A DNA stretch of 64,000 bases from Trypanosoma brucei (lineage: Eukaryota). The stretch's first letter is position 1. Each line of letters opens with the position of its first letter. Below the pieces are notes generated by a model, which saw only the letters and a program-made list of their open reading frames with translations, was not told where the DNA came from and searched no databases. Location: the NCBI GenBank assembly GCA_000002445.1, contig CM000208.1, positions 2,080,001-2,144,000 on the forward strand. The letters are read 5' to 3'. The position numbers and the translations under genes are program-made. This document shows, piece after piece, positions 2,891-45,882 of this stretch.

Positions 2891-4756
2891 ATGCCACTTT
2901 TTAAACCATCGGAAATACCTGATAATTCGGCGACGGTCCCGCCCGTCACTGGTTGTCGAGACGGTTGTGTGGCGAGCGGCTTTGACAGCTACCCACGCGG
3001 GTTGATCGACCGATGTTCTGTTGGTGGTAGGACGAACATTTGGCCCATACATCCGGATGTACAGCAGGCAATACAGCTGGGCAAACATTTAAACATGAAG
3101 GCTGTCGTCCGTGGTATGAGAGGCACTGGAAAGTCCACAGTTGTCTCGAGGCTCTGCGGTTACGTGCCCGCTACTCGCTATACTCCATCAACAGGGATCA
3201 GCGCTGGGACGTTTTTTTATAGAAGCCGCACTTCAACCAATACTATGGTAGAGTGTGGGGGAGCAAAGGTTGAGTTATGGGATGTTGTCGACGATGCAAC
3301 ACCCTCTGGCACATCCGGCACGGTAGCGGATATGCACACCGTGGATGTTTACCGCGGCTGCCATGTCGCTCTATTTGTCATTGATAGGAGACGGAAAGAG
3401 TCGCTCGAGTACGTTGTGCGTGAAGCGCCCCACGTCCCACCAACCACATGTATCGTAATTGTAATTAACTTCCGCGATGCCCCCAGGGAGTCGCTTGTTG
3501 TGTCGGAGCGTGACGTTAGTGCCGTGTGCAAATCCCTTCGCCGGACGACAACTCCGATGGTTTTGGCGGTGTCTGGCGGTCGACCGCCTCTGGAATGTTA
3601 TTCGACGTCGGCAATATTTGTGAGCATCAGTGCGGTGACAGGTGATGGCATGGAATCCCTATGGGATGCTTTTGAGACGCCATTCCTCCTTGTTAAGGTG
3701 CTGTCGCTTGAAGGGGAGATAAATTCTTGTTTCCAGCACATTGAGCGTCATAGCACCCGGACATTAGACGAGTCAGCAAGGCGCCAGTTGCATGAGAAGG
3801 AGGAACTGCGGAGGTTGCGCAAGGAGAGAGAAATGGGTGAGGCACGCAGTGGACATAATCCCCGCAGAGGCGATTGCGCCCCGCCGACACCGCGAAGAGA
3901 AGTCCTTTCCCTCACGCACGCGACGACGCGCGGTTGCGGAGGCGTGGTGTGTGAGGAAGAGGATGTGGAGGAAAATGGGATAGCGAAGGGCTTCTTTGAT
4001 GACCTTGAAGGTGATGAGACATGTGAAGAATGCTTTGGGGACGTTGGCGGCCATATTGGTGTCCAGAGCAGCGAGGCTGCAGCGGACGACGAGGCGGAGA
4101 CGCTCAGCAGCAGCCATAATGCTAGTTGTGTCCGTCGTTTGCCATCCCCAGTTGTGGCAGCGGCCGCATCACTGTTACGGGGGGACAAAGCAGTAGCAGG
4201 GGATTCATTAACTTCTATTGGCGGTTATACTGATAGTTTCCATGCGAACATGCCCCGAACAAGCAATTTGGAGGGGAGCACGTTTGACGGTCGTGGTGGC
4301 GGTTTTAGTTTAGGGGAGGCGGCGACGTTGGACGATGGTTTCTTTAGTGTCGGGGGAGATGAAGAGGAAGAGGAGTTACGCCTGACAGATGAAGAGTCCC
4401 TTGCAGGAAACGGCAGCGATGCTGATGAGAGTCTACCACCAAGGACTCGGATACAGTTGAAGGAACCCGTGTCGGTGAATTCCCTACCGGGAGCTGAACA
4501 GTCGGCGGTGATGACATCCAGCATGAAGGCAAATATCGATGTTCTTTTACGAGAAATGCAGAGCGTATTGCTAACGTCAACCGGATCTAAACCCAAGTCA
4601 CGGCCAGAGCGCAGTAGCAGGCAAAGAAGCAACCGCGACCGCAAAAATAGGGAGTTAAGACGCCGGAGGGCGCATGGCGCCGCTGAGTGTGGGGAGAAAA
4701 AGGAGATACACTGTGACAAATACGATGATGGAACGTTTGAGGTTATACGAGATTGA
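2891..4756 (+). CDS. Divergent Rab-like GTPase-domain protein (candidate pseudo-GTPase) with a ~380-aa acidic, low-complexity C-terminal extension.
   Basis: A 621-aa ORF. The P-loop is intact (GMRGTGKST) and the effector-region pattern is Rab-like (YTPSTGISAGTFFY). G3 is degenerate (ELWDVVDD instead of WDTAGQ, so the catalytic Gln is absent), G4 is NFRD instead of NKxD, and G5 is ISAVTG. The tail is rich in D/E/S/G. Confidence 0.65.
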   Translation: MPLFKPSEIPDNSATVPPVTGCRDGCVASGFDSYPRGLIDRCSVGGRTNIWPIHPDVQQAIQLGKHLNMKAVVRGMRGTGKSTVVSRLCGYVPATRYTPSTGISAGTFFYRSRTSTNTMVECGGAKVELWDVVDDATPSGTSGTVADMHTVDVYRGCHVALFVIDRRRKESLEYVVREAPHVPPTTCIVIVINFRDAPRESLVVSERDVSAVCKSLRRTTTPMVLAVSGGRPPLECYSTSAIFVSISAVTGDGMESLWDAFETPFLLVKVLSLEGEINSCFQHIERHSTRTLDESARRQLHEKEELRRLRKEREMGEARSGHNPRRGDCAPPTPRREVLSLTHATTRGCGGVVCEEEDVEENGIAKGFFDDLEGDETCEECFGDVGGHIGVQSSEAAADDEAETLSSSHNASCVRRLPSPVVAAAASLLRGDKAVAGDSLTSIGGYTDSFHANMPRTSNLEGSTFDGRGGGFSLGEAATLDDGFFSVGGDEEEEELRLTDEESLAGNGSDADESLPPRTRIQLKEPVSVNSLPGAEQSAVMTSSMKANIDVLLREMQSVLLTSTGSKPKSRPERSSRQRSNRDRKNRELRRRRAHGAAECGEKKEIHCDKYDDGTFEVIRD

Positions 4757-5389
4757 CAGACCGTATGGCATTTAACGTTGCTGAATCCGTTACTCTGGCG
4801 ACGACTTTCTCCTTCCTTCTGCTCCCCCCGTTTCCCCCTCCTCTGAATGTTTGCTTTGTAATTATCATCAGCTAATTTTTACACTAGTTTCTTGCTGTTT
4901 CCACGAGTTTATTTATTTTTTACTCTTTTGTGTTGAATTCCGCTCCGGAGGTTGCTTCTCTGCATTTTTTTTTCCAAGGGCGAAGCAAGCAGGGGGAAAA
5001 GGCACGTGGAAAACCTAATTTTTGGTGATGTATTTCTTCATATTCCTCTCTTTTTTTTTAATTCTGCAGAATCTGTCGAAATCAAGTGCTTTCCAACGCT
5101 TATCTTTTGTTGTTGTTTTTTCGCACCGGGTGATATGTTCTTTCAACGCTGGCGCCGCTGTTGCTTCCTGAGTTCCTGCTGGTCCTCGTACCGTAAAAAA
5201 CTTTTCTTTTCACGTTGTTCAATTTTTTTGCATACCTTCCAACCGCTGCGTGAATCGAAACCAAACCAAGACAACGACTGTGAATCAGCACAAATTGATT
5301 GTCAAAAGAACGGTGCTGTTATCGTCATTCTTACTTCGTCTGGCTCTGGGGCCGCAGGTGAAGACGTGCTCCCCCCCAATCCGCCACGC

Positions 5390-5962
5390 ATGGGCCTGTT
5401 GGAGTTCCTTCTCAAGATCCGACCCTTTTCGCGCCGAACGCGTCGGATCCTGATGCTCGGCCTTGACAACGCCGGTAAGACGCGTCTTTTGAGGAGGATA
5501 TGTGAAGAGGAAGTATCCGACACTTTCCCAACGCAGGGGTTTAACATTCAAAACATCACCGCAGATGAGTTGAAATTTGTTGTGTGGGACGTTGGAGGTC
5601 AGAAGTCTCTCCGATCTTACTGGCGGCACTACTTTGACCATACTGATGCGCTCGTGTTCGTTATTGATTCTGCTGATATGGAGAGGATAGAGGAAGCAAG
5701 GACGGAGCTTCACTATATTTTAGAGGAGGAAAAGTTAGTAGGTGTGCCGCTTCTGCTGTTTGCGAACAAGCAAGACATCCCAGAAGCGGCGTCGCAGGAG
5801 GAGGTTATGTCATCACTCAACCTGCGTGACACAATTAATCGCCCATGGCACATCGAGCTCTGCTCGGCTGAGACAGGGGAGGGGTTGAGCTCCGGCTTGT
5901 CGTGGGTGGTAGACACCCTGAAAAAGAGACGCCCATCGTTAAGGCCAGACGGCCAAGTATAA
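5390..5962 (+). CDS. ARL2: ADP-ribosylation factor-like GTPase 2 (ARL2-like). The ORF nominally opens at 4952, but the upstream part is a pyrimidine-rich non-coding leader.
   Basis: Compared with human ARL2 (MGLLTILKK...LLMLGLDNAGKTT...WDVGGQKSLRSYWRNYF...NKQD...CSA), this ORF has MGLLEFLLK...ILMLGLDNAGKTR...WDVGGQKSLRSYWRHYF...FANKQD...CSAETGEGL. The N-terminal Gly2 is suitable for the Arf-family N-terminus. The in-frame ATG sits at 5390-5392. Confidence 0.88.
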   Translation: MGLLEFLLKIRPFSRRTRRILMLGLDNAGKTRLLRRICEEEVSDTFPTQGFNIQNITADELKFVVWDVGGQKSLRSYWRHYFDHTDALVFVIDSADMERIEEARTELHYILEEEKLVGVPLLLFANKQDIPEAASQEEVMSSLNLRDTINRPWHIELCSAETGEGLSSGLSWVVDTLKKRRPSLRPDGQV

Positions 5963-7044: not shown

Positions 7045-10000
7045 GTGCCCCCTCTTTCGTCTTTGCTATGGGGCCATGCGCACCCATATATAAAGGTGGC
7101 AATCCAAATCCAGAAGTGGGCACTTCCAAGGATGCAAAGTGGTGTGGGTAACATTACAACTCCCACGTCGCCGCAACAACTTGTTGTAGAAGCTCCTGCT
7201 GAACTCCTGGAAACCTGTGGAGTGCAGTATCCTGCGGCGGCTGATGTGAATGAGGGCGAGGTTGTGGATTCCAAAGCCCTTTCTGCAGCCCCCGGGGAAC
7301 GTGACGTCTTGGGATGTGGACCCACACTGCTGTCACTTTTATACAGCACCCAAAAGAAGGACGAAGTAGGGCATCGCGCAGTAACGCCAATGTTGTGGGA
7401 GTGCAACGGAGCTCAAGAAAGATGCCACTCATCGAAACGGGACTTTACAACATGTGTGAAGGCGCGGAAGTCCCCTCCTCCGGGCTCTGCAACGGGGTCT
7501 GGAACTGGGGCCATTAGGGATGTTCTCAGACCGTATAGAGAGTCACACAGTAAACGGTTTCGTGCGAAGGTAGTGGATTGCCGCGCGGCTCTTTCAGTAG
7601 ACGACCAAATCATCACCCTCAAAAACGAGAACGCTAAATATAAGGCTCAGTTACTCACCAAAGATGTGCAGCTGAAGGAGCTTGAGGCAGCACTTCGTGC
7701 GTTTCGAGCGCCGAGGGTTCCGGTTCCCTCGGGCGTGACAGAACCTGCTGAAGTAGGGGGGTGTTATAATGGCACGGACACTGAGGTGGCGCGTCTTACC
7801 AGAGAAAATGGTGAGGTGTGGAGGCGGCTGCAGCAATCACATGCCCAGTTGGCAGTCTGGAAAAGGGATGCACGGGTTTCGAAGTTGCAGGAGTTGAAGA
7901 TGGAGTTGGCTGTTTATCAGGCCGAAGTGGCTCGCCTCGCGGCTGAGGTTCCATCTAGTGGCGGCGCTGGAGGTGCACAAAATCACCCAGCTAGGTCGAA
8001 GTTACAGAGAGAAGCGGAGACTTCACGGGCAAAGGATCTCTTTATCGCTGAGCTAAAGGAAAGAGCGTCTGAGAACGCTACAGCACTGCGAAAATGCATG
8101 GACGACGCTATGCGCACAAAAAGTACCCTTGAGCAGGTCCGGGAGGAGAATGAGTTGATATCTAAGGAGTTGTGCTTGTTCAGAAAAACGGCCTTAGCTC
8201 TGACACGGGTGCAGGAGGAACTGAGGGCCACCCAGTGTGAGCTGGCTGAGGCTCGAGAGCGGCTTCAAGCCTTCGAACAGATGATGCACACGGTGGGAGG
8301 TCCTGAGGAGGTAAAGGCTGTGGTTAAGGAACGTGATGCCCTTTTGACCCTGTTAAAGCAGCATAATGCACGCGAAGCGGCATATCACCAGGAGTTTTTC
8401 ACCCGCCAGCGCGAAATGAAGGAGTCTATGGAGCGGTGCCTTCAGGAAGCTGTTCAACAAGAACGAGCACTGGCTCAGGATAGAGAGATGCAGCTTCGAC
8501 GCTCTTGCTTGATGTGGAAAGAAAGGTGCGAGCGACTGCTTCCAGACAAGTTGTTCGAACAGGGACGTCTTATAGAGGGTGGTGGAACCGTTGTAGAAGA
8601 TGAGGAACAGCAGACCGAGTTACACCAACTACCCAAGAAAATAGTAACCCCTTTCATGGATAATTCACAGAGGCAGCGGTTGCTTACAAAGCATATTGAC
8701 GATGTTCTAATCGTCCGGCAAGTCTCGTCGACGAGCACGCCGGCCAGTTCGTCAACCACTCTCTCCCCCGTGTCGGGTCTCTCGAAATTGTCCATAACCG
8801 ACACTACCCAGAGCCAAAGTAGCTCTCATGGCATGCAAATCAGCCACCCAGGGAACGAAGACGCATCTTCGCCTGTGAAGGGAAATGTAATGTCTTCACA
8901 GAAAGGGAGCTCTGGCGACGCTCCCGTTCCACCCACAGAGAGAACCGATCCCGACGGTGGCGCCGTTAGCTATCCAGCAAGCTCCGCCGTAATATCTGCA
9001 GAGCGGACTTCACTGGTTGAGAACAGCAAGGGCGATATCGTCACGTCGATTTCAACAGAGGAGGGTGCGGTTCAACTGCCTAGAGGACTGATGACCGCTG
9101 GTGTTGATTCTAGTGATGATTCAGGCAGCGAGTTGAGCGACCTTGCTGTGGGAATAGAGGAGGGCAAAACCCCATCATTTCGACTGCATGGCAATAGCGA
9201 TGGGCAATTAATCCCTGAAGTTGTCTCCAGGATGCCCTTAACTCTGCGCACGGTGAGCAGCGATGGCGTAGCTGCAGTTCTTACAGTTGCTTCACCACCT
9301 CCAAGAGTTTCTGTGCCACCGGCACCTGTCCCACGAGAATCTGCAGGATCTATTGCTTCATCTGAGAATAAACTCTCTGATGTGAATGTTGCCGTGCCAC
9401 CTCCAAGAGTTTCTGTGCCACCGGCACCTGTCCCACGAGAATCTGCAGGATCTATTGCTTCATCTGAGAATGAGCTCTCTGATGTGAATGTTGCCGTGCC
9501 ACCTCCGAGAGTTTCTGTGCCACCGGCACCTGTCCCACGAGAATCTGCAGGATCTATTGCTTCATCTGAGAATGAGCTCTCTGATGTGAATGTTGCCGTG
9601 CCACCTCCAAGAGTTTCTGTGCCACCGGCACCTGTCCCACGAGAATCTGCAGGATCTATTGCTTCATCTGAGAATGAGCTCTCTGATGTGAATGTTGCCG
9701 TGCCACCTCCGAGAGTTTCTGTGCCACCGGCACCTGTCCCACGAGAATCTGCAGGATCTATTGCTTCATCTGAGAATAAACTCTCTGATGTGAATGTTGC
9801 CGTGCCACCTCCAAGAGTTTCTGTGCCACCGGCACCTGTCCCACGAGAATCTGCAGGATCTATTGCTTCATCTGAGAATGAGCTCTCTGATGTGAATGTT
9901 GCCGTGCCACCTCCAAGAGTTTCTGTGCCACCGGCACCTGTCCCACGAGAATCTGCAGGATCTATTGCTTCATCTGAGAATAAACTCTCTGATGTGAATG

Positions 10001-10968
10001 TTGCCGTGCCACCTCCAAGAGTTTCTGTGCCACCGGCACCTGTCCCACGAGAATCTGCAGGATCTATTGCTTCATCTGAGAATAAACTCTCTGATGTGAA
10101 TGTTGCCGTGCCACCTCCAAGAGTTTCTGTGCCACCGGCACCTGTCCCACGAGAATCTGCAGGATCTATTGCTTCATCTGAGAATGAGCTCTCTGATGTG
10201 AATGTTGCCGTGCCACCTCCAAGAGTTTCTGTGCCACCGGCACCTGTCCCACGAGAATCTGCAGGATCTATTGCTTCATCTGAGAATGAGCTCTCTGATG
10301 TGAATGTTGCCGTGCCACCTCCGAGAGTTTCTGTGCCACCGGCACCTGTCCCACGAGAATCTGCAGGATCTATTGCTTCATCTGAGAATAAACTCTCTGA
10401 TGTGAATGTTGCCGTGCCACCTCCGAGAGTTTCTGTGCCACCGGCACCTGTCCCACGAGAATCTGCAGGATCTATTGCTTCATCTGAGAATAAACTCTCT
10501 GATGTGAATGTTGCCGTGCCACCTCCGAGAGTTTCTGTGCCACCGGCACCTGTCCCACGAGAATCTGCAGGATCTATTGCTTCATCTGAGAATAAACTCT
10601 CTGATGTGAATGTTGCCGTGCCACCTCCAAGAGTTTCTGTGCCACCGGCACCTGTCCCACGAGAATCTGCAGGATCTATTGCTTCATCTGAGAATGAGCT
10701 CTCTGATGTGAATGTTGCCGTGCCACCTCCAAGAGTTTCTGTGCCACCGGCACCTGTCCCACGAGAATCTGCAGGATCTATTGCTTCATCTGAGAATGAG
10801 CTCTCTGATGTGAATGTTGCCGTGCCACCTCCAAGAGTTTCTGTGCCACCGGCACCTGTCCCACGAGAATCTGCAGGATCTATTGCTTCATCTGAGAATA
10901 AACTCTCTGATGTGAATGTTGCCGTGCCACCTCCGAGAGTTTCTGTGCCACCGGCACCAGTTCCGTGA
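7045..10968 (+). CDS. Coiled-coil protein with a C-terminal tandem array of 34-aa repeats (repetitive cytoskeletal or antigen-like protein). The true start may be a downstream ATG, for example near 7132.
   Basis: A 1307-aa ORF. Codons ~185-520 have a heptad-rich, coiled-coil-type composition (KNENAKYKAQLLTKDVQLKELEAALRAF...), followed by a Ser/Thr-rich linker and then ~16.5 copies of NVAVPPPRVSVPPAPVPRESAGSIASSEN(K/E)LSDV. A polypyrimidine tract lies immediately 5' (6990-7040). Confidence 0.8.
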   Translation: MPPLSSLLWGHAHPYIKVAIQIQKWALPRMQSGVGNITTPTSPQQLVVEAPAELLETCGVQYPAAADVNEGEVVDSKALSAAPGERDVLGCGPTLLSLLYSTQKKDEVGHRAVTPMLWECNGAQERCHSSKRDFTTCVKARKSPPPGSATGSGTGAIRDVLRPYRESHSKRFRAKVVDCRAALSVDDQIITLKNENAKYKAQLLTKDVQLKELEAALRAFRAPRVPVPSGVTEPAEVGGCYNGTDTEVARLTRENGEVWRRLQQSHAQLAVWKRDARVSKLQELKMELAVYQAEVARLAAEVPSSGGAGGAQNHPARSKLQREAETSRAKDLFIAELKERASENATALRKCMDDAMRTKSTLEQVREENELISKELCLFRKTALALTRVQEELRATQCELAEARERLQAFEQMMHTVGGPEEVKAVVKERDALLTLLKQHNAREAAYHQEFFTRQREMKESMERCLQEAVQQERALAQDREMQLRRSCLMWKERCERLLPDKLFEQGRLIEGGGTVVEDEEQQTELHQLPKKIVTPFMDNSQRQRLLTKHIDDVLIVRQVSSTSTPASSSTTLSPVSGLSKLSITDTTQSQSSSHGMQISHPGNEDASSPVKGNVMSSQKGSSGDAPVPPTERTDPDGGAVSYPASSAVISAERTSLVENSKGDIVTSISTEEGAVQLPRGLMTAGVDSSDDSGSELSDLAVGIEEGKTPSFRLHGNSDGQLIPEVVSRMPLTLRTVSSDGVAAVLTVASPPPRVSVPPAPVPRESAGSIASSENKLSDVNVAVPPPRVSVPPAPVPRESAGSIASSENELSDVNVAVPPPRVSVPPAPVPRESAGSIASSENELSDVNVAVPPPRVSVPPAPVPRESAGSIASSENELSDVNVAVPPPRVSVPPAPVPRESAGSIASSENKLSDVNVAVPPPRVSVPPAPVPRESAGSIASSENELSDVNVAVPPPRVSVPPAPVPRESAGSIASSENKLSDVNVAVPPPRVSVPPAPVPRESAGSIASSENKLSDVNVAVPPPRVSVPPAPVPRESAGSIASSENELSDVNVAVPPPRVSVPPAPVPRESAGSIASSENELSDVNVAVPPPRVSVPPAPVPRESAGSIASSENKLSDVNVAVPPPRVSVPPAPVPRESAGSIASSENKLSDVNVAVPPPRVSVPPAPVPRESAGSIASSENKLSDVNVAVPPPRVSVPPAPVPRESAGSIASSENELSDVNVAVPPPRVSVPPAPVPRESAGSIASSENELSDVNVAVPPPRVSVPPAPVPRESAGSIASSENKLSDVNVAVPPPRVSVPPAPVP
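9283..10968 (+). repeat. Coding tandem repeat of a 102-bp unit, ~16.5 copies, >97% identical.
   Basis: Period measured directly: the ccaagagtttctgtgcca motif occurs at 9301 and 9403, giving 102 bp. Units differ only at aaa/gag (K/E) and cca/ccg (silent). The array terminates at a TGA created within a decayed last unit (cca cga gaa -> ccg tga gaa). Confidence 0.95.
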
Positions 10969-12488
10969 GAAGTACACCAGGTGACGATTTTGTTGTGTGT
11001 GTGTGTGGTTGCGTAGCGGTTGTGCATGGGCATTTCGCTATCGTTAAGGTTACTACGGCTTCTATTGAGTGAGTGCACACTTTTTTCATGCTTTTGGTAC
11101 GGCAAACATTTAGACTGTGAGGAAGGTTGCCATTAGTACTTGGTTCTTTGACGGTGCTGTGTTTCTACTCGTGGTGTATGGTGGAAGGTACCTGCTGCTT
11201 ACTTTTTCTTTGATGGGAAACAATCGCCACTGTAGGCGTCTTCCACTTTCAGTTTCCACATTGAATCGAACGGAATTAGTTTACTTCGCGATTCTTTTCG
11301 TTTGTAGAGTTATTTGTTTGACTTCTACTGTTATCCGTCCCCTGTGACTATCTCTAAATTTATGCACCTCCTTTTTGTCTTTTTTTTTTGCGGTCGCACA
11401 TGCGCTTTTCTTTGACACGTACGCGTATTGCCACCGCAGATGGGCACGTCAAGATGAGGTATGTGGTGTTCATATTCATAGAGTTCTTTGTGGTTGAGCG
11501 CCGCTATCGGTTGCAGTGTAAAGGATGCACAGTGGTGTCTGCTTTTATGCTTTGGATTTGTCCTGTCACTCGGCAATGAGTTTGTGCTTGTTTTTTTTCC
11601 TTCCGTCCATCTGGTACGTCGTTTATTTCTGCGCCATTCGTCATTATTATTCTTTAAAGTGCTGTGTGTGCACTTCGATATAATGGAGTACGGTATGCGA
11701 CGAAAGGGGGGGGTGGCGAGAGGAATCAATCCGGGGATACAGTTTTTAAAGTCATTTTTACCTATCGATTATTGATCATGTGTTACTCTGAAACACGTTG
11801 ACGCTCTGTTGCCTCATTTCCCGTTTGATTTTTTTCCCGCCATATTTATCGCAGCCGATAGTGGACACAATGTCGGCATGATTCACGTGTTTCTGCCGCA
11901 CTCTGATAAGCTAGTCGTGAACGTCGGTGTATGAGGCGTTTAAGTGTATGAGCAGGGGTCGGGAGGCGGTTCCGCTCCCGTTTTTCCAGTGTGTAGTTGC
12001 CTATATTGCTCTCCTCTACGGTATGGTGAAGCGCTTCCTTTGCTTGGAGGTCGGAGTGTGCGGTGTTTTGCCCCCCGTCTTGTTTGCGGTGCTGGCAGAG
12101 AAGCCGTTGATCTCCGCAAGGTGCCGTCGCACTCTGATGGTGGCAGTGGTGTAACCCAACCGAAGAAAAATTACCTGAAGTGCTGCATCTGCCGTTTTGA
12201 GCTGCAGCTTCGCCTTAGTTTACGGCATTCAGGAGTTACGGTGAGCTGATCGGGAAAGACAATGATGTGCTGGTACAGATTTTGCCACATTTGTGCATAC
12301 TTCCCCCTTGTGATGATATGCTTCTTGCTTGTACCCCTGCTTTTCCTTTTTTCATGTGGGACCACATCGCCTGGGAGATGATGCGTTAACCAACTTTCAC
12401 TTTCTTGTCTTAAAATTGAACCGCTACGTGACTTACTGTAAAGAGGATCAAGAGGTTGTGAAGGAGGATACAGTCACGAATAGCAGTT

Positions 12489-13781
12489 ATGTCAACAGGT
12501 CACCCCGTGGACTGTGTACCACTCCACCAGGCAGCCGAATCCTGCGACCCGGTTGCTAAGCTTTGCGCCTTCCTGATGGCAAAACGCGGATGGAGTCACC
12601 ACCGACTGGCGCAGGCGCTTGGGGTCCCCCCGCTTGTCCTGGAGGAATGCATTCGTAACGGCGTATCCTCAGGGGCGTTGCACGGGCGTTTAGCGCGATG
12701 GATCGCGGAGGGCGGCGGCGCCTCTTTGCCGCAAAGCCTGGTGCAGGCTGTTGTTCAGGCTCCGGCGGGAATTCTGTCGGGTAGCGACACACCGGAGAGC
12801 CAGTTGGATGGTGACCCACTTGCTGACCTGGACCCTGTCACCCGGGCGTATTTTGTGGAACTTGGGTCTAGCATTGGACAAAGCTTCATTTCTATTTTAA
12901 ACGATCCACGTCAAGCAAGGGACAATTTTAGGTGGGGCTCTTGGTTCGTTGGGATTGTGTCCAATGCTTTGGATCACAAGACCTACATGAAGCGGGCAGG
13001 GACTGTTACTAACGAGCAACCGTCGTCAGATACGTTGATGGCCAGGTATAATCAAAACTGGGACTACATGCCATATCTGCAACTTGTGTCAGGGACATTA
13101 AGTGAAAACAACAAAGGGGTGGAACCCTTGGCGAATGTTCCCGCGGCTACGCCACAACTCGGTTCCGTTCTGTCGTGCGCACTAAATGAAAACCTACCGT
13201 GGCCCCAGGGTGTGCCAGAGGAATTCTTTGACACATCGTACGATGCGGCCAACGAGCTCCGCCTTCTGGAGCGGGTAATTGAAGAACGAGGAGGAAGTAA
13301 GATAGATGAAGATGGAGTTCCGATCACCGCTACAACGTTCTCAGATGATTTTGAGGAGATTGAAAAGCGCATGAAGAAATTACGCGAGTGGGAAGGCGCG
13401 GTGGAGAGCTGCTTATTGCGTCATGTGCAGAGCCGTGCGGACCAGTTTTTCATCGTGTCGCAGGATTTCACGGATCGTGCTGGGGAGGCGCGCAGGGCTC
13501 TTGACGACCTTCAGCAAACAAGGGCGGATGTCGATGCCTATGGGACGGGTTTTGTCAGGGAGATGATGACGATCGCACAGAACTACCGCATTCGACATGG
13601 TTTGACTGCTTCCCGGGACTTGGCCGTGGGGATGATGGAGACACTCTCAGCGCTGTCAGTCAATGAAAACTGGATATCGCTTCCGGAGAGAGACATGACT
13701 GAGCTCCCAGCCGTGGTTGAAAACTATTGTGCCTTGTACAAAGCTTTATGGTGCGGGGCCGCCGCAGGGGCAGGTGAGGCC

Positions 13782-13819
<38 letters not shown>

Positions 13820-15758
13820 CTTCTCTGAGACTGGAAACTTCACGCGGGTGAGGGTGTTAAGGGATGTTCCCGAGCGGATGTTGCTGGCGAAAGAGAGTCT
13901 TCATAAAATGATCATGAGAGAAATTGAGCTCACTTTCAACCCGTTGCCAGGATCAGATGTGGAGGAAGGCCGCTTGTTGAGAGCGGTGAGAGCAGCGGGA
14001 GAAATGAATCTATTGCCAACCATCATTCACCAAAACCGGGAGCGACTGCCTGATATTATGTGGACGAACGCTCGAAGCGTGTTTGTGACGGGCATGATGG
14101 ACAGTGGTGCTGTGGGTGAGAAAGGAGCAAATTCTCTTCTGGAAGTCGCCGTGGCTGGTGACAGCTCACGTGAAGAGAAGTTATCACTCATTGGCCTGTC
14201 CGACTCGTGCCGCTTCCCCGCTTTTATGCGGATTTTTAGTGCGATCGCCGTTCAAATATCCCAGGCAGTGAGGCAGGCCTCTCGTTGTTGGGCTCTTCTC
14301 GTCGTTGGGGCTAGTGTGCGTTCCAGTTTCCGCGACGTTGGTGCTCATGATGGTGAGGAAAGTTTGTGGGATATGAGCAGGAGGAACTTAGTTGCGTTGT
14401 TCGCCGCGGCAGAGGGGACGGTTGCGCTGTTTTTGGAAGCGCGGTCACGGCCTTCGTGCGTCCCTACCAATGTGCACGATCTCGAGACACTTGTGAAGTC
14501 CGGGTACGATTTCATGCAGGGCATGGTCGCAGTATTTCACGACGTTGCGGCGATGGTTGGTGATTTAGGTGACCCCTGGAGCTGCCTTTCGGGTAAGCAG
14601 CTTAAAGCCGCTGTGGTGCGGCTCGGAAAGGAACACGTTCGGTCACGTCACGCGGCAAATATCGAAAGGATACGCCTGACGCTAGAGGGAGAGAAGTGGG
14701 TTCCGTGTGACTCAGATGCGGATTTTCAGTCCCGTGTTTCCGTAATATTTAATGGTGGTGACGAAGCCGTCAGCGCGCTGCGGGCGCTCATTGTTTTCAC
14801 CGATTTTAAGGACTCGCGCGAAACTCACCCCAGTTCGCCGAAGACGTGTCAGGAGATGGCAGTGGCTCCATCGAAGAAGCCAGATGCGGTACCGGATCTC
14901 AATTTTACGGCAGTCGGTGAGGGTAAGGTAAATAAGCCGTTTATATTACCTTCGTTGGGTGGACAATTCGATGGACGAGTGGTGAGTGTATCCCTGCAAA
15001 TACTTCTCGAGATGTTGCATGATTATGATGGCTACCTGGGTCGGTTCCCATTTCTTGCTTTTGACATCATGGGAAAGGTGTACGATCTCTTGAGGCTATA
15101 CAATTCACAGTGCGCTGCTCTCCTGCTAGGTGCGATGGCTGTGGAGACCGGTACCCTTGAATCTATCACCGTTCCACACATGGCTGTAGCTTCCCAGAAT
15201 CTTGCGCTGCTCTACGACGGTATTCCGCTCATGCAAAGGCGCTGGGAGAGGGTGGTTGATGGTGATAATTTGCCTTCCTCCATCTCAGAGGACCTAGAGC
15301 GTGTTCGCCAGGGTTGCCAGATGTGTCGTTTGGAACTACTGGGAAAAATAGCAGCACTTGTAAAGGAGAAGGTAGGGGTGCTTGCTGACACTGCTAGAAG
15401 AGAGTGGCAAGACGCCGGAAGCCCGTGGGTCATGACAACGCTACGAGAAACAGCCCGAGTCATGCACCTCCTAAACCCTCTTGTGCCCGTTAGCGACTGC
15501 CGTGGTGTTGTTGTGCCAATGTTAGGTACTTTTGCCCGTATGATGCGGACTGTGATGATGTCGCCTGATATTGACGAGGTGGAGCTTGGAGTCATGAGGT
15601 CGGATGTGCTTGTGTTTAAGGCCAATGTGGAGAGGTTCGGCTTTGATGTTATGCGTTGTATGGAGTTATGCGCGTCACCAACTGACGCCATGAAAGAATC
15701 AAAGGAGCCCTGCGCAACGGATGAAGCTGTCTTGGCATGGTTCTTTGGTCAGGCGTAG
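12489..15758 (+). CDS. Large conserved hypothetical protein (1089 aa). There is a weak, unverified resemblance to the N-terminal region of Vps54/syndetin-type (CATCHR) tethering subunits.
   Basis: A long uninterrupted ORF in the transcribed direction. A helical segment (LREWEGAVESCLLRHVQSRADQFFIVSQDFTDRAGEARRALDDLQ) is patterned like the Vps54 N-terminal motif. There is an internal poly-Asn run (N14) encoded by (AAC)n. No catalytic motifs were recognised. Confidence 0.6.
13781..13820 (+). repeat. (CAA/AAC)13 trinucleotide microsatellite inside the CDS, encoding poly-Asn.
   Basis: caacaacaac... for 40 bp, translated as NNNNNNNNNNNNNN. Confidence 0.95.
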
Positions 15759-32868: not shown

Positions 32869-32912
32869 ATATATATATATATATATATATATATTGATAT
32901 ATATATATATAA
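32869..32912. repeat. (AT)n microsatellite (two blocks) preceded by a (CTCTAT)-like repeat.
   Basis: atatatatatatatatatatatattgatatatatatatata; the upstream sequence is ctctatatctctatacctctctatctatc. Confidence 0.9.
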
Positions 32913-33960: not shown

Positions 33961-34010
33961 GCACACAAACACACAAACACACATACACACATACACACAC
34001 ATACATATAT
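33961..34010. repeat. CA-rich compound microsatellite (ACACAA/ACACAT)n.
   Basis: gcacacaaacacacaaacacacatacacacatacacacacatacatatat. Confidence 0.85.
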
Positions 34011-39282: not shown

Positions 39283-39514
39283 TGGGTTTAACTGCTGCTG
39301 AGGTCCCCCCCTTTTTTTATTATTTCGTTTCAAACACATTAAACGCACGCATACCCGTGCCGTCTCACTACCGTTTTGTTTTCCCCTCCCCCTACTAGCG
39401 GTCTTTTTTATTTCATCCACACACGTGCTCTGATTGTAAACATTTCTGAGAAGCGTAAAAAGGTTGGGAACGTATTAAATGTTGTACGGTCTCTTTGTGT
39501 GTTTGTGTTTATGT

Positions 39515-39526
<12 letters not shown>

Positions 39527-39561
<35 letters not shown>
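39527..39561. repeat. (GT)17 microsatellite.
   Basis: An uninterrupted gtgt... run of 35 bp downstream of the ABC1 kinase gene. Confidence 0.95.
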
Positions 39562-39562
<1 letters not shown>

Positions 39563-41377
39563 ACAAATGAAATAAACGAGATGTTTTTTGTTTTTGTTTT
39601 TTAGGCTGCAGCACCGTAGTCCCTGCTGGTGGTTGCATTTGGTTCTGCGACAGGAAGCTTAAGGGGGGCGGTGCCGACGTGCTTTTCTTCTTTTTTTTGT
39701 TGTTGTTACCTCATCTTTCAATGTGTTGCCGTATTTGTGTAGTGCGTAGATTTTACACCGTGCAGAGGTCTTTATGTGTGCATTTCAGCGCCGCATGTCT
39801 GCCCCATGCGCGTGGAGAACATCCGCTAGGGATAATAAATCATACATTACATCACGTCGATGCCGCGTTCCCTTCTGCATACGGTCATGTCTCGCCATTT
39901 CTTTGTATTAGTTGTCCTACCCATATCTTCATATCTGCGGTCTCGTGCTTTTTGCAGCATATTTACTTGCGTCCATGTGTATGGCTGCGTGAGCTTCGAC
40001 TCGTGTCATGTTCCATGCTTGCTGTGATTTGGTACGCTCCATTTTGTCATTCCTATCTTTCTATTTTTCTATTTTTCTATTTTTACTTTTAACTTTTTAA
40101 CTTGTGCAGTTTTTTTTTGTTTCTGTTCTTCCTTCTTCTTTCTTTTTTTTTTCTTAATCTTCCATGTCCGTTCGCATCAGTTTTGGAGGTGAGAAAGCAG
40201 GGCCGTTGGTGGGACAAATATTTTCACCACTAGCTGGGCGTGGGGAATGGGCAACACGGGTGCTTGTTACTCTTGTGTGTAATTGTACGTATATATTATG
40301 TGGTATATATATATATATATACGTGCATATGACCTTCGTCAGTTTATCGCTTCCGGCTTCCCCCACCGGCACGTTTTGTATGTTATATTTTCACCCATGC
40401 TTGTTTTTATTTAATTTTTTTTTTTAAAAGAGAAGAAAAACAATGTTTTTGTCGGTTCTTGTTGGCGAATGTTGTTTGTTTCCGGACGCAATGGTTTGCG
40501 GGATGTGGGATGTGGATATGGAGGAGAAGTGTCGATGTTTCTTTTCTTTTTTTTATTTGTTTGTTCAAGGTTTCTGGAAGAATTTTAATGCGCATATGCA
40601 CAGGAGGTTTCAGCAGCTGGGAACTGTGATAACATAAAGAAAGGAGAAGCACTTGAAGTTATCGGAGAATCGGCACGTGTTGTGAGAGTTTTTCTTTTTT
40701 TTTTTTTTTGTATTGACGTGTAAGGGACTTTGGGGCGTTGATCGCTGTGAGGGGAGGAAAATGTGGGGAAAGATGAGAGGAAGTTTTAAAGGAAAATTTG
40801 GGATCATATTCTTACAAGACTTCTTTGGTGGCGAAGTTACGTTTAGTTTTTCGTGTCGGTATCGCCGTTTCGGGAGGTGGTCGCACCACTTCAACGTTTC
40901 ACAATTAAATTCCATTACAACATTCGTATATTTCAACCTTTACACTGTTTCGTGCCGATAATGTTTTAATGTTTAAAAAAAAAATTAAGGTATCTGATCT
41001 TTTGTATGCAGTTAGGCCCATCAAATTGCGCCACTGAGCATTATATCGCGACTTCGTGTGCACTTTTGGCACTTCTCTCCTTTCCCTTTTTTAAAAATAT
41101 CTCTTTGCTTTCATGTACAATTGCTTCCCCGCCCTCGATTACTATTAACCCACCTCCTGCTTCTTATAATGTTTTCTTTTTTTTTTTTTTGCTTCTTTTC
41201 ACCGTTTGCTCACCTTACAATTTATCTTCATCAGCTGCGTGGCGTTGATTCCGCCCACCTCCTTTAATGGTGGGGTCGAGGACCATCCCGACATCCACGT
41301 TGGGGCGAAACCTGCGGGAAACGGAGGGGGCTGAAACCGACCGATTCGGTTTTTTTATAAGCTCAGAAGAAAAGGCC

Positions 41378-42289
41378 ATGGAGGAGGAATTCCTTCGTGT
41401 CCACCCCGAGAAGTTGAGTGTACGAGAGCGGTGGTCGAAAGCGTTGCTGCGGTGGGATGGTTGCGCTCATATGAAAAAGAAAAAGTTATGTCGAGTCGGT
41501 GTTCCGCAGTCACAAAGAAAAACAGTGTGGCCACTGCTTCTGATGACATATGGTTGGCAACTTGAGAAATACGGGGATTATCATCTTCTTATGAGCCAGC
41601 AGCCGCGCGATGCAGCAATGTTTGAAATAATCGAGCGTGACCTTGGAAGGACATTTCCAACCCATAGATTGTTTAATAAACCGGGTAGCACAGGGCAAAT
41701 GGGGTTGCGTAGTATTCTTCGCGCCTATGCTAATCTCAACCCGGAGACGGGGTATGTTCAAGGAATGGGCTTTCTCGTAGGAACACTTCTTATCCAAATT
41801 GGGGATGAAGAGAGCACATTCAGTGCATTTGTTTCGATTATGGAGAACCCAAGATACTCCATGGCCAAGTTATATGCTCCTGGATTCCCCCTTCTCTTTG
41901 TTCGCTTACATCAACTGCAGAAACTGTTGGGGCGCCATTGCAAGAAATTGCTCAAACGGCTCATGGAGTATGGCATTGAGTTGTCTACCTTTGCAGCCAA
42001 CTGGTACCTGACATTGTTTGCATACCACTTCAACTTTGGTTTACTCTCCCGTATTTGGGATATGTTCCTTTGTGAGGGGTGGAAGATCATTCATCGTGTG
42101 GCGATTGCTCTTCTATTGCTGCACAAAAGCGCTCTCGATCGCGCGAGGGATGGTGCAGAGTTACTGATTGCACTGAACACCGCTCATGAAGGAAAGGATG
42201 AGGTGGAGGTCATCCGTAAGGCCCTAAGTGTGAAGTTTAAGACGGCTGATTTAGTCCGGTGGGAGAGGAAGTTTTGTCAACAGCTCTAA
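41378..42289 (+). CDS. TBC-domain Rab GTPase-activating protein (TBC1D10/EPI64/Msb3-like), the short paralog.
   Basis: Arg-finger motif IERDLGRTFP (IxxDxxR) and Gln-finger motif GYVQGMGF (YxQ). The downstream helices (WYLTLFAYHF, RIWDMFLCEGWKIIHRVAIALL) are collinear with the second TBC gene in the window. The ORF track opens at 41267, and the first ATG (MEEEFLRV) is at 41378. Confidence 0.85.
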   Translation: MEEEFLRVHPEKLSVRERWSKALLRWDGCAHMKKKKLCRVGVPQSQRKTVWPLLLMTYGWQLEKYGDYHLLMSQQPRDAAMFEIIERDLGRTFPTHRLFNKPGSTGQMGLRSILRAYANLNPETGYVQGMGFLVGTLLIQIGDEESTFSAFVSIMENPRYSMAKLYAPGFPLLFVRLHQLQKLLGRHCKKLLKRLMEYGIELSTFAANWYLTLFAYHFNFGLLSRIWDMFLCEGWKIIHRVAIALLLLHKSALDRARDGAELLIALNTAHEGKDEVEVIRKALSVKFKTADLVRWERKFCQQL

Positions 42290-44625: not shown

Positions 44626-45882
44626 ATGTCGGATGGGGGGAATGTTCTTGGTCGACCAGGGGATTGCAACAACTGCATAGAAACTGCCAAAAGCAACTTT
44701 CATTGCTCCGCGTCCACTGATGCCTCTGCTGCCCAAAATGTTCCGGTACCAGTTCCAGACCCTGGTCTTAATGCTACCGTAGGTGCTGACTCAGTTCTTG
44801 CCCCTCCTGTTGGTACGGATGAACAAGACGATGACAGCTCTGTGGAGTCCGCCTCGGTGAGCGCTTCTGGCAACCCAGAAAATGAAGAAAATCTACTTGT
44901 CGATGAGTTTGGCTTCATTATCGATGAAGAAGAACATGATCGGGTGCAGCGGTACATCAGAGGCATTGACGGTAAACGTGTTGCTCGGCGCGAGGTGAAG
45001 TGGCAGAAGATGCAGGCGAACTGGGAGTCAATGAGCAAGAAACGTCGTAGTAAAGTGAAGTCGCGCTGCCGCAAGGGTATTCCATCTTCTTTTCGGGGTG
45101 CAGCGTGGCAGCTATTGATAGGCTCGTACTTGGAAATGCTGAACCCCGGCAACGAGGGCACATATGATTGCCTTCGCCTCAAAGATATCTCGGATGAAGG
45201 GTTGAAAGGAACAATTTCGCGGGACCTTCCGAGGACCTTCCCGAAGCACGTTTTGTTTAGAGAAGAGGGCGGTATTGGACAGACATTTTTGCGCAATGTA
45301 CTTCACGCCTACGCTAACATCGACCCGGAGGTGGGGTATGTGCAGGGCATGGCATTTGTTGTTGGTGCGCTCTACACGCAGATGACCGAGGAGGAGACAT
45401 TTTGGGCTTTGCACACTCTCATGAACGGCGAAAAGTATCGGTTGCGGGAGATGTACAAACCGGGGTTTCCTATGCTTCATAAACTTTTCTACCAGTTACA
45501 GCGGTTGATGGCCAAACTGCTTCCAAACCTATACGAGCACTTTGAGGAGCTTGGTGTTCACCCAACATACTATGCCTCACGGTGGTTTATGACACTGTTT
45601 GTGTATGACTTTAACTTTCGTGCTGTGTTGAGGATTTGGGACATTTTTTTGAGTGAGGGGTGGAAGATTATATTTCGTATCGCTATTGTTTTGCTGAAGT
45701 TGGAGGAGCGGCGATTGCTTGCCATGTCTTTTGAGGAGATCATCTTTGCAACGAAAACTCTTGAACAGGGCAAAGATCCTGATGAACTTATTCGGCGAGC
45801 ACATGGGGTCCGGTTTAAGACAGCTGAGCTGGAGGCCTTCGCGAGGGAGTATGAATTAAACAAACGTGAAGGGCAGGTGTGA
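44626..45882 (+). CDS. TBC-domain Rab-GAP, TBC1D10 (EPI64)/Msb3-Msb4-like, the long paralog.
   Basis: KGIPSSFRGAAWQLLIGS resembles TBC1D10A KGIPHHFRAIVWQLLCSA. ISRDLPRTFP carries the Arg finger and DPEVGYVQGMAFVVGALYTQMTEEETFWAL carries the Gln finger. WFMTLFVYDFNFRAVLRIWDIFLSEGWKIIFRIAIVLL resembles WFLTIF...RIFDIFMSEGLEIVFRVGLALL. Confidence 0.9.
   Translation: MSDGGNVLGRPGDCNNCIETAKSNFHCSASTDASAAQNVPVPVPDPGLNATVGADSVLAPPVGTDEQDDDSSVESASVSASGNPENEENLLVDEFGFIIDEEEHDRVQRYIRGIDGKRVARREVKWQKMQANWESMSKKRRSKVKSRCRKGIPSSFRGAAWQLLIGSYLEMLNPGNEGTYDCLRLKDISDEGLKGTISRDLPRTFPKHVLFREEGGIGQTFLRNVLHAYANIDPEVGYVQGMAFVVGALYTQMTEEETFWALHTLMNGEKYRLREMYKPGFPMLHKLFYQLQRLMAKLLPNLYEHFEELGVHPTYYASRWFMTLFVYDFNFRAVLRIWDIFLSEGWKIIFRIAIVLLKLEERRLLAMSFEEIIFATKTLEQGKDPDELIRRAHGVRFKTAELEAFAREYELNKREGQV

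What the first reader, a model, noticed from the sequence alone, without database searches (positions are those of the whole stretch)
9283..10968. Near-perfect 102-bp (34-aa) tandem repeat array forming the C-terminal half of a coiled-coil protein.
There are about 16.5 units at >97% nucleotide identity. Only two variable sites recur: aaa/gag gives K/E at one residue, and cca/ccg is silent. Such homogeneity implies ongoing concerted evolution (unequal crossover or gene conversion). Assemblies usually collapse arrays like this, so the true copy number is probably larger. The unit (NVAVPPPRVSVPPAPVPRESAGSIASSEN[K/E]LSDV) is Pro-rich and Ser-rich. It does not match the 38-aa MARP-type repeats I can recall, so it may be a different repetitive cytoskeletal or immunodominant antigen family. 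The K/E alternation does not follow a simple periodic pattern (K,E,E,E,K,E,K,K,E,E,K,K,K,E,E,K).
Basis: seen in the sequence. Interest (0 to 1): 0.6.

Follow-up and report, generated by a model that had tools for sequence, protein, structure and literature searches.

The report
Known trypanosome FTZC repeat array
The 102-bp repeat array is real, but it is the already published and annotated C-terminal repeat domain of FTZC, the classic marker protein of the flagellum transition zone in Trypanosoma brucei, so the finding is ordinary.

Summary
There are 16 full 102-bp (34-aa) units plus a 51-bp partial unit at 9283-10965. Interior units average 98.5% pairwise identity.

The ORF (ATG 7132 to TGA 10968, 1278 aa) is residue-for-residue identical to XP_823085.1, "flagellum transition zone component" of T. 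brucei brucei TREU927. That gene is Tb927.10.8590 (FTZC), described by Bringaud et al. 2000 as a "repetitive flagellum protein". Antisera against it have been a routine transition-zone marker ever since.

The same 34-aa units occur in two other deposits: the authors' own AAF60169.1 (3.5 units) and T. b. gambiense DAL972 (7.5 units, with an extra R/Q variant).

AlphaFold predicts long helices for residues 133-483, with disorder elsewhere including the repeats. Orthologues exist only in Trypanosoma, and none has the array. T. grayi has 2.5 copies of a related 41-aa Pro-rich module. The unit therefore probably arose by amplification of an ancestral C-terminal module in the T. brucei lineage.

Concerted evolution is well supported. 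The true copy number remains untested.

Small new points: T. brucei FTZC lacks the conserved C-terminal ...EEDESFTVHHV tail, and its stop codon aligns with the unit's Arg codon.

The parts
7132..10968 (+). FTZC coding sequence (Tb927.10.8590), 1278 aa plus TGA stop
   Evidence: The translation is an exact match to XP_823085.1/EAN78257.1, 'flagellum transition zone component [T. brucei brucei TREU927]'. It is 98% identical over the non-repeat part to the DAL972 orthologue. The gene ID comes from PMC4162612.
7132..7527 (+). N-terminal region, residues 1-132, predicted disordered
   Evidence: AlphaFold2 pLDDT is below 50 and there is almost no secondary structure. The region is weakly conserved among orthologues apart from the EGEV motif.
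7528..8580 (+). Conserved helical, probably coiled-coil core, residues 133-483
   Evidence: AlphaFold2 predicts helices 133-151, 156-192, 217-271, 287-386 and 391-483, with pLDDT about 75-92. Hydrophobic residues fill 0.62-0.73 of a/d positions in three of the four long helices tested (0.42 in 391-483), against 0.34-0.43 overall. Most invariant alignment columns fall here.
8581..9282 (+). Ser/Thr-rich linker, residues 484-717, mostly disordered
   Evidence: pLDDT is below 50 apart from short low-confidence helices between residues 490 and 527. Conservation among orthologues is poor.
9283..9384 (+). Repeat unit 1, the divergent 5' edge unit (TVAS... instead of NVAV...)
   Evidence: It has 6 differences from the consensus, all within the first 12 nt. 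The same edge unit is present in DAL972.
9385..10914 (+). Fifteen homogenised interior 102-bp units (NVAVPPPRVSVPPAPVPRESAGSIASSEN[K/E]LSDV)
   Evidence: Published FTZC qPCR primers AE400 and AE401 each match 16 times inside the array.
10915..10968 (+). Partial 17th unit (51 nt, with 3 further substitutions near its end) plus the TGA stop, which aligns with the unit's CGA Arg codon
   Evidence: Alignment of the tail to the consensus shows homology ending about unit position 57. The end is the same in DAL972 and AAF60169.1.
10969..10983 (+). In-frame 'EVHQV' just after the stop; a possible relic of the ancestral C-terminal ...TVHHV motif (weak, post hoc)
   Evidence: Five orthologues carry ...ESFTVHHV at or within two residues of the C-terminus. 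VH[HQ]V occurs only once in all six frames of the window, at this position.
9072..11105 (-). Spurious 677-aa antisense ORF, a by-product of the repeat
   Evidence: The unit has no stop codon in one minus-strand frame. Every other ORF of at least 250 aa in the window is on the + strand.

Best explanation
**Identity.** The window is Trypanosoma brucei brucei TREU927 chromosome 10. The array is the C-terminal repeat domain of FTZC (flagellum transition zone component, Tb927.10.8590). FTZC is a known, expressed cytoskeletal protein and the first transition-zone marker described in trypanosomes.

**Architecture (shown or predicted here).**
- A disordered N-terminus.
- A helical, probably coiled-coil core of about 350 residues. 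This is the only part well conserved across Trypanosoma.
- A Ser/Thr-rich linker.
- 16.5 nearly identical 34-residue units. They are rich in Pro, Val and Ser, acidic (pI 4.8), and predicted to have no secondary structure.

**How it most likely works (inferred).** The coiled-coil core dimerises and anchors the protein to the salt-resistant transition-zone cytoskeleton around the microtubule doublets. The repeat domain is a long, flexible, multivalent extension projecting from that anchor. Its length, rather than its exact sequence, is what varies.

**Evolution of the array (inferred from sequence).** The array arose in the T. brucei lineage by amplification of an ancestral Pro-rich C-terminal module (V.V.VPPP...VP...G..AS). 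That module is present in one to 2.5 copies in other trypanosomes. Unequal recombination and gene conversion keep the array homogeneous. This leaves the edge units divergent and changes copy number between strains.
For: **Identity**
- Exact sequence match to XP_823085.1. Its 90% cluster also holds AAF60169.1 and the DAL972 protein, both with the same 34-aa units.
- Gene order Arf-like / FTZC / Vps54-like is the same in DAL972.
- Published FTZC primers map into the array.

**Expression and location (papers)**
- PMC7132888, PMC3280300 and PMC4162612.
- Puncta surround the transition-zone microtubules in expansion microscopy, PMC8437234.
- It is described as a distal transition-zone marker.
- It is retained on flagella extracted with 1 M NaCl.

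**Architecture**
- AlphaFold2 runs, heptad analysis, composition and pI.

**Lineage-specific amplification**
- A profile search of 1.84 billion representative proteins finds the family only in Trypanosoma, and no orthologue has the array.
- T. grayi has a 2.5 x 41-aa module (score 153 against a null maximum of 48).
- The brucei unit aligns to the equivalent tail segment of T. grayi (score 83), T. conorhini (71) and T. vivax (59). These scores are reached by 0-1, 0-1 and 7-8 of 1000 shuffles respectively.

**Concerted evolution**
-. For comparison, the flanks are 99.2-99.3% identical between the subspecies.
Against: - The function of the repeat domain has not been tested here. From my memory of Bringaud et al. 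2000, which is not held in the library, RNAi knock-down gave no obvious phenotype. If so, the domain may be dispensable in culture.
- BLASTP with composition adjustment finds no significant similarity between the unit and the T. rangeli or T. conorhini orthologues. The ancestry argument therefore rests on position, motif and shuffle statistics for a low-complexity sequence.
- The disorder prediction for the repeats used a single sequence.
- Copy-number differences between deposits may partly reflect cloning or assembly rather than biology.
Confidence: 0.95

Rival explanations
1. The array length in this assembly is wrong, either collapsed or mis-expanded. The true FTZC has a different, probably larger, number of units.
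For: Three deposits of the same gene carry 3.5, 7.5 and 16.5 units. Near-identical 102-bp units are hard to assemble.
Against: The variable sites break the array into exact self-matches of at most 305 nt in TREU927 and 203 nt in DAL972. That is shorter than a Sanger read, so the represented order is in principle uniquely resolvable. The differences between deposits come from different strains and subspecies and may be real length polymorphism.
Confidence: 0.3
2. The repeat domain is mainly an immunodominant B-cell antigen or decoy, and the K/E variation reflects immune selection.
For: From general knowledge, tandem-repeat proteins of trypanosomatids are often strong B-cell antigens. The only non-synonymous variation is a charge swap.
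Against: FTZC is an internal cytoskeletal protein of the transition zone. No paper in the held library links the gene ID or the peptide to serology. The K/E order is indistinguishable from random. The same two variants are shared by both subspecies, as expected for old neutral variants shuffled by conversion.
Confidence: 0.1
3. The repeats fold into a regular structure, such as a polyproline-II or beta-rich fibre, that forms a defined transition-zone element. They would then not be a disordered extension.
For: The strict 34-residue period and the high Pro/Val content (7 P and 6 V per unit). The antibody signal is punctate around the doublets.
Against: AlphaFold2 gives no secondary structure, pTM 0.12 and mean pLDDT 56 for five units. 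That run used a single sequence, so it is weak evidence.
Confidence: 0.15
4. The real gene is the 677-aa minus-strand ORF (9072-11105).
For: It appears as a long ORF in the mechanical ORF list.
Against: It is open only because the unit lacks stops in that frame. The plus-strand ORF continues into a conserved domain with orthologues in eight Trypanosoma species. The whole window is a plus-strand gene array.
Confidence: 0.01

Closest known systems
FTZC, flagellum transition zone component of T. brucei (Tb927.10.8590; XP_823085.1; AAF60169.1; Bringaud et al. 2000, Mol Biochem Parasitol 111:283)
   Same: It is the same protein. The sequence is identical to the TREU927 record. The 34-aa units match those in the original authors' deposit. 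The gene neighbourhood matches DAL972.
   Different: Nothing differs except the number of units per deposit: 16.5 here, 7.5 in DAL972 and 3.5 in AAF60169.1. There are also a few private unit variants: R to Q in DAL972, and V to A in one unit of AAF60169.1.
FTZC orthologues of other trypanosomes (T. congolense, T. vivax, T. grayi, T. cruzi, T. rangeli, T. conorhini, T. theileri)
   Same: They share the conserved helical core at 29-33% overall identity in the alignment and 37-40% in local BLASTP for the three aligned orthologues. Profile E-values range from 0 to 7e-120. Five of the seven have a Pro-rich module (V.VPPP...VP) at the equivalent C-terminal position; T. congolense and T. theileri have none.
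   Different: None has the 34-aa array. T. grayi has 2.5 copies of a 41-aa module. Five of the seven carry a conserved ...RY.EED.W...EEDESFTVHHV tail at or near the C-terminus, which T. brucei and T. congolense lack; the T. theileri record is partial and also lacks it.
Other repetitive cytoskeletal proteins of T. brucei (MARPs with 38-aa repeats, FAZ1, ClpGM6); comparison from general knowledge
   Same: They are large cytoskeleton-associated proteins. Much of their length is a highly homogenised tandem array that varies in copy number.
   Different: The unit length differs (34 against 38 aa for MARPs), the sequence differs, and the location differs (transition zone, not the subpellicular corset or FAZ). 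No sequence comparison with these proteins was run here.

Membership tests
FTZC (Trypanosoma flagellum transition zone component) | Sequence identity to the annotated and published FTZC protein | tested here: met
   Exact full-length match to XP_823085.1/EAN78257.1. It is in the same 90% cluster as AAF60169.1 and the DAL972 FTZC.
FTZC (Trypanosoma flagellum transition zone component) | Conserved N-terminal/central helical domain shared with orthologues | tested here: met
   phmmer E-values of 0 to 7e-70 against the DAL972 FTZC and the T. rangeli, T. conorhini and T. theileri proteins. Profile hits to T. cruzi, T. grayi, T. congolense and T. vivax with E-values of 1e-236 to 7e-120. Helices predicted for residues 133-483.
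FTZC (Trypanosoma flagellum transition zone component) | C-terminal tandem 34-aa repeats (the 'repetitive flagellum protein' of the original description) | tested here: met
   16.5 units here. The same unit sequence is in AAF60169.1 and DAL972.
FTZC (Trypanosoma flagellum transition zone component) | Conserved chromosomal context | tested here: met
   An Arf-family GTPase lies upstream and a Vps54-like gene downstream, both in the window and in T. b. gambiense chromosome FN554973.1. Flanks are 99.2-99.3% identical.
FTZC (Trypanosoma flagellum transition zone component) | Localisation to the flagellum transition zone, with cytoskeletal association | not testable with these tools
   From the literature only.
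   The period is 102 nt, or 34 aa. No MARP sequence was available for a direct alignment.
Trypanosomatid tandem-repeat B-cell antigens | Recognition by infection sera | not testable with these tools
   No paper in the held library mentions the gene ID or the peptide in a serological context.

The most novel reading that the evidence does not exclude
In the T. brucei lineage, FTZC was remodelled rather than merely decorated. An ancestral single Pro-rich module was amplified to 16 or more copies. The conserved acidic C-terminal tail (...RY.EED.W...EEDESFTVHHV), kept in T. cruzi, T. rangeli, T. conorhini, T. grayi and T. vivax, was lost. The array's last unit now abuts a relic of the old terminus ('EVHQV', in frame just after a TGA that aligns with the unit's CGA codon). 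If the lost tail is a docking motif, T. brucei FTZC would contact the transition zone differently from its orthologues. Array length could then be a strain-variable structural parameter, or a usable typing marker.
Probability: 0.2. Interest if true: 0.3.

Novelty: already known. Interest (0 to 1): 0.08.

Why it matters
It matters little as a discovery. The gene, its repeats, its expression and its location have been in the literature and in GenBank since 2000, and antisera to it are a standard reagent.

Three modest points remain useful:
- Users of anti-FTZC sera and of repeat-targeted primers should know that the target is a strain-variable array, with 3.5 to 16.5 units in the deposits. The primers of PMC4162612 anneal 16 times.
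- The array is specific to the T. brucei lineage, so the repeats are unlikely to be present as an epitope in other trypanosomes.
- Comparison with orthologues gives a clean small example of a coding repeat array born from a pre-existing single module.

Tried and rejected
1. **Unit search in the 5.8-billion-protein index.** Searching three units returned nothing, not even the parent protein. The negative result is therefore uninformative. It was probably caused by candidate saturation or bias filtering on low-complexity sequence.
2. **BLASTP of two units against orthologues.** With composition adjustment, comparison against the T. rangeli and T. conorhini proteins was not significant. I replaced it with Smith-Waterman alignment and two kinds of shuffle control. 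Support is good for T. grayi and T. conorhini, moderate for T. vivax, and absent for T. theileri, T. congolense, T. cruzi and T. rangeli under the stricter control.
3. **Looking for the lost C-terminal tail.** tblastn with the last 40-110 residues of the orthologues found nothing above chance in any frame downstream of the stop. Only the 5-residue 'EVHQV' stands out, and that observation is post hoc.
4. **Pfam on the full protein.** No family matched.
5. **Rfam on the whole window.** No hits.
6. **The original paper and the transition-zone proteome paper.** Bringaud et al. 2000 and Dean et al. 2016 are not held in the library. What I say about the RNAi phenotype is therefore from memory.
7. 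**Literal peptide search in papers.** No hits.
8. **Periodicity or higher-order structure of the K/E and A/G patterns.** Runs tests were not significant.
9. **The antisense 677-aa ORF.** Rejected as a frame left open by the repeat.
Full report
**Observation**

Tandem Repeats Finder reports a single strong array in the window: 9295-10958, period 102, 16.3 copies, 98% matches, no indels. Read in the frame of the long plus-strand ORF, the array begins at 9283. It consists of 16 full units plus a 51-nt partial unit that runs into the stop codon at 10966-10968.

The first unit differs at six positions, all in its first 12 nt (TVAS for NVAV). The 15 interior units differ only at unit position 21 (A/G, silent in Pro) and at positions 88 and 90, which always change together (AAA/GAG, K/E).

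Interior units are on average 98.5% identical, with a minimum of 97.1%. The array is 43.9% of the coding sequence. No other copy of the unit exists in the 64 kb.

**Identity**

The non-repeat part of the ORF hits proteins named 'flagellum transition zone component' from T. b. gambiense (98% identity), T. rangeli, T. conorhini and T. theileri.

An exact-sequence look-up shows that the 1278-aa product of 7132-10965 is identical to XP_823085.1/EAN78257.1, 'flagellum transition zone component [Trypanosoma brucei brucei TREU927]'. Its 90% cluster also holds AAF60169.1, 'flagellum transition zone component [Trypanosoma brucei]'.

PMC4162612 gives the gene ID as Tb927.10.8590. The qPCR primers published there for FTZC each match 16 times inside this array.

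The gene order Arf-like GTPase / FTZC / Vps54-like is the same in the T. b. gambiense chromosome, and the flanks are 99.2-99.3% identical. The window is thus T. b. brucei TREU927 chromosome 10, and the finding is FTZC.

**What is already known (papers read here)**

- FTZC was described by Bringaud et al. [quoted passage not shown] The paper itself is not held in the library.
[quoted passage not shown] In expansion microscopy its signal forms puncta surrounding the transition-zone microtubules (PMC8437234).
- It is used as a distal transition-zone marker.
- It stays on flagella extracted with detergent and 1 M NaCl.
- It is detected in procyclic, bloodstream and tsetse-derived forms.
- Its mRNA and protein were probed by Northern and Western blot (PMC4162612 Fig. 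S4).

From memory only, the original paper reported no obvious phenotype after dsRNA knock-down.

**Architecture**

AlphaFold2 was run on the 721 non-repeat residues with the orthologue alignment. It predicts long helices at 133-151, 156-192, 217-271, 287-386 and 391-483, with pLDDT about 75-92. Everything else has pLDDT below 50.

Three of the four long helices tested show heptad-type enrichment of hydrophobic residues: 0.62-0.73 at a/d positions, against 0.38-0.43 overall. 'Coiled-coil protein' is thus a reasonable description of the core.

Five repeat units folded alone give no secondary structure and a pTM of 0.12 (single sequence, so weak evidence). The repeat domain is acidic (pI 4.79). 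Each unit holds 7 Pro, 6 Val and 6 Ser out of 34 residues. Pfam has no model for any part of the protein.

**Evolution of the array**

Three deposits of the gene carry 16.5 units (TREU927), 7.5 units (DAL972; L001 8152-8912) and 3.5 units (AAF60169.1).

The A/G21 and K/E variants are shared by TREU927 and DAL972. DAL972 also has G53A (R to Q) in three units, and AAF60169.1 has a private V to A change in one unit.

All four combinations of the two TREU927 variable sites occur (AE 7, AK 4, GK 4, GE 1). The order of the variants is indistinguishable from random.

Three features together are the classical signature of homogenisation by unequal exchange and gene conversion: invariant interiors, divergent edge units, and variants restricted to one deposit that have spread to several units. 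This is an inference from sequence.

At the 3' edge, homology to the unit ends near unit position 57, and the TGA stop aligns with the unit's CGA Arg codon. The same end is present in all three deposits.

**Origin of the unit**

A profile search of 1.84 billion representative proteins finds the family only in Trypanosoma: T. cruzi, T. grayi, T. congolense and T. vivax, in addition to the species above. The remaining hits are weak matches (E-values 1e-10 to 5e-4), mostly to long proteins and probably coiled-coil noise. No orthologue has the 34-aa array.

T. grayi has 2.5 copies of a 41-aa module (AAAVPLPP.G.GLASVAK...DTDSE.SLP.RVQVPP.P). Its internal alignment scores 153, against a null maximum of 48. 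T. cruzi, T. rangeli, T. conorhini and T. vivax each have a V.VPP Pro-rich segment at the equivalent position; T. congolense and T. theileri have none.

The brucei unit aligns to that segment with the following Smith-Waterman scores:

| Species | Score | Shuffles reaching it (of 1000, two shuffle schemes) |
|---|---|---|
| T. grayi | 83 | 0-1 |
| T. conorhini | 71 | 0-1 |
| T. vivax | 59 | 7-8 |

Composition-adjusted BLASTP, run against the T. rangeli and T. conorhini proteins only, is not significant. I therefore consider it likely, though not proven, that the array arose by amplification of an ancestral C-terminal module in the T. brucei lineage.

**A small additional difference**

Five orthologues carry a conserved tail...RY.EED.W...EEDESFTVHHV, at or within two residues of the C-terminus. 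T. brucei and T. congolense do not, and the partial T. theileri record also lacks it. tblastn finds no remnant of it downstream of the brucei stop.

The codons immediately after the TGA read E-V-H-Q-V in frame. VH[HQ]V occurs only once in all six frames of the window, at this position.

**Copy number**

I could not test whether the array is collapsed. The variable sites limit exact internal self-matches to 305 nt in TREU927 and 203 nt in DAL972. That is below the length of a Sanger read, so the represented order is resolvable in principle. The array does not look like a consensus of collapsed units. Long reads or a Southern blot are needed.

**Rejected reading**

The 677-aa minus-strand ORF (9072-11105) is an artefact. 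The unit simply has no stop in one minus-strand frame, and every other ORF of at least 250 aa in the window is on the plus strand.

**Verdict**

This is a real, correctly described repeat array that belongs to a protein known, named and used for a quarter of a century. Novelty: already known. Interest is low.

The lineage-specific origin of the array, the missing conserved tail and the stop-codon position are minor additions. They rest on computation only.

Noticed in passing
window 13781-13819 (in the Vps54-like gene, 12489-15758 +); L001 11737-11757: A (CAA)13 run encodes 13 consecutive Asn in the Vps54-like protein. T. b. gambiense DAL972 has (CAA)7. This accounts exactly for the 1089 versus 1083 aa length difference, so it is a second coding length polymorphism next to FTZC.
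   Followed up: partly
window 10966-10983; C-termini of P0002, P0003, P0007, P0008, P0010: FTZC orthologues of T. cruzi, T. rangeli, T. conorhini, T. grayi and T. vivax share a tail...RY.EED.W...EEDESFTVHHV, at or within two residues of the C-terminus. T. brucei and T. congolense lack it. The in-frame codons just after the brucei TGA read EVHQV, the only VH[HQ]V in six frames of the window.
   Followed up: partly
P0008 (T. grayi FTZC), residues ~600-690: There are 2.5 tandem copies of a 41-aa Pro-rich module related to the brucei unit. This is a small-scale version of the same amplification in a distant trypanosome.
   Followed up: yes
window 9322-10948 (primer sites): In PMC4162612, FTZC mRNA is listed first among RBP33-bound transcripts (log2FC 3.7). 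RBP33 otherwise binds mostly non-coding, antisense and repeat-derived RNAs. The validating qPCR primers anneal 16 times each inside the array. Whether binding is to the repeat RNA is not addressed.
   Followed up: partly
tool behaviour: The word-indexed search of 5.8 billion proteins with three repeat units returned no hit at all, not even the parent protein. A negative result for a low-complexity repeat in that tool is therefore not evidence of absence.
   Followed up: no
window 1-64000: All 21 other ORFs of at least 250 aa are on the + strand, and GC skew is positive in all but two of the 2-kb windows. This fits a single trypanosomatid polycistronic unit. There are no Rfam families at gathering score.
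   Followed up: partly
window 41267-42289 and 44626-45882: Two RabGAP-TBC domain genes lie about 2.3 kb apart, with one unannotated ORF between them. Upstream of FTZC there is an Arf-family GTPase (5132-5959) and a 621-aa protein with a weak Roc-like match (2891-4756).
   Followed up: no
window 46760-53269: A 2169-aa ORF has an adenylate-kinase/AAA-like region (residues ~377-521) and a short FAP206/YHS-like match (~1104-1153). It may be another flagellar protein.
   Followed up: no
window 32869-32911, 39496-39561, 33962-34005: Intergenic microsatellites (AT)21, (TG)33 and CA-rich runs, typical of trypanosome intergenic regions.
   Followed up: no
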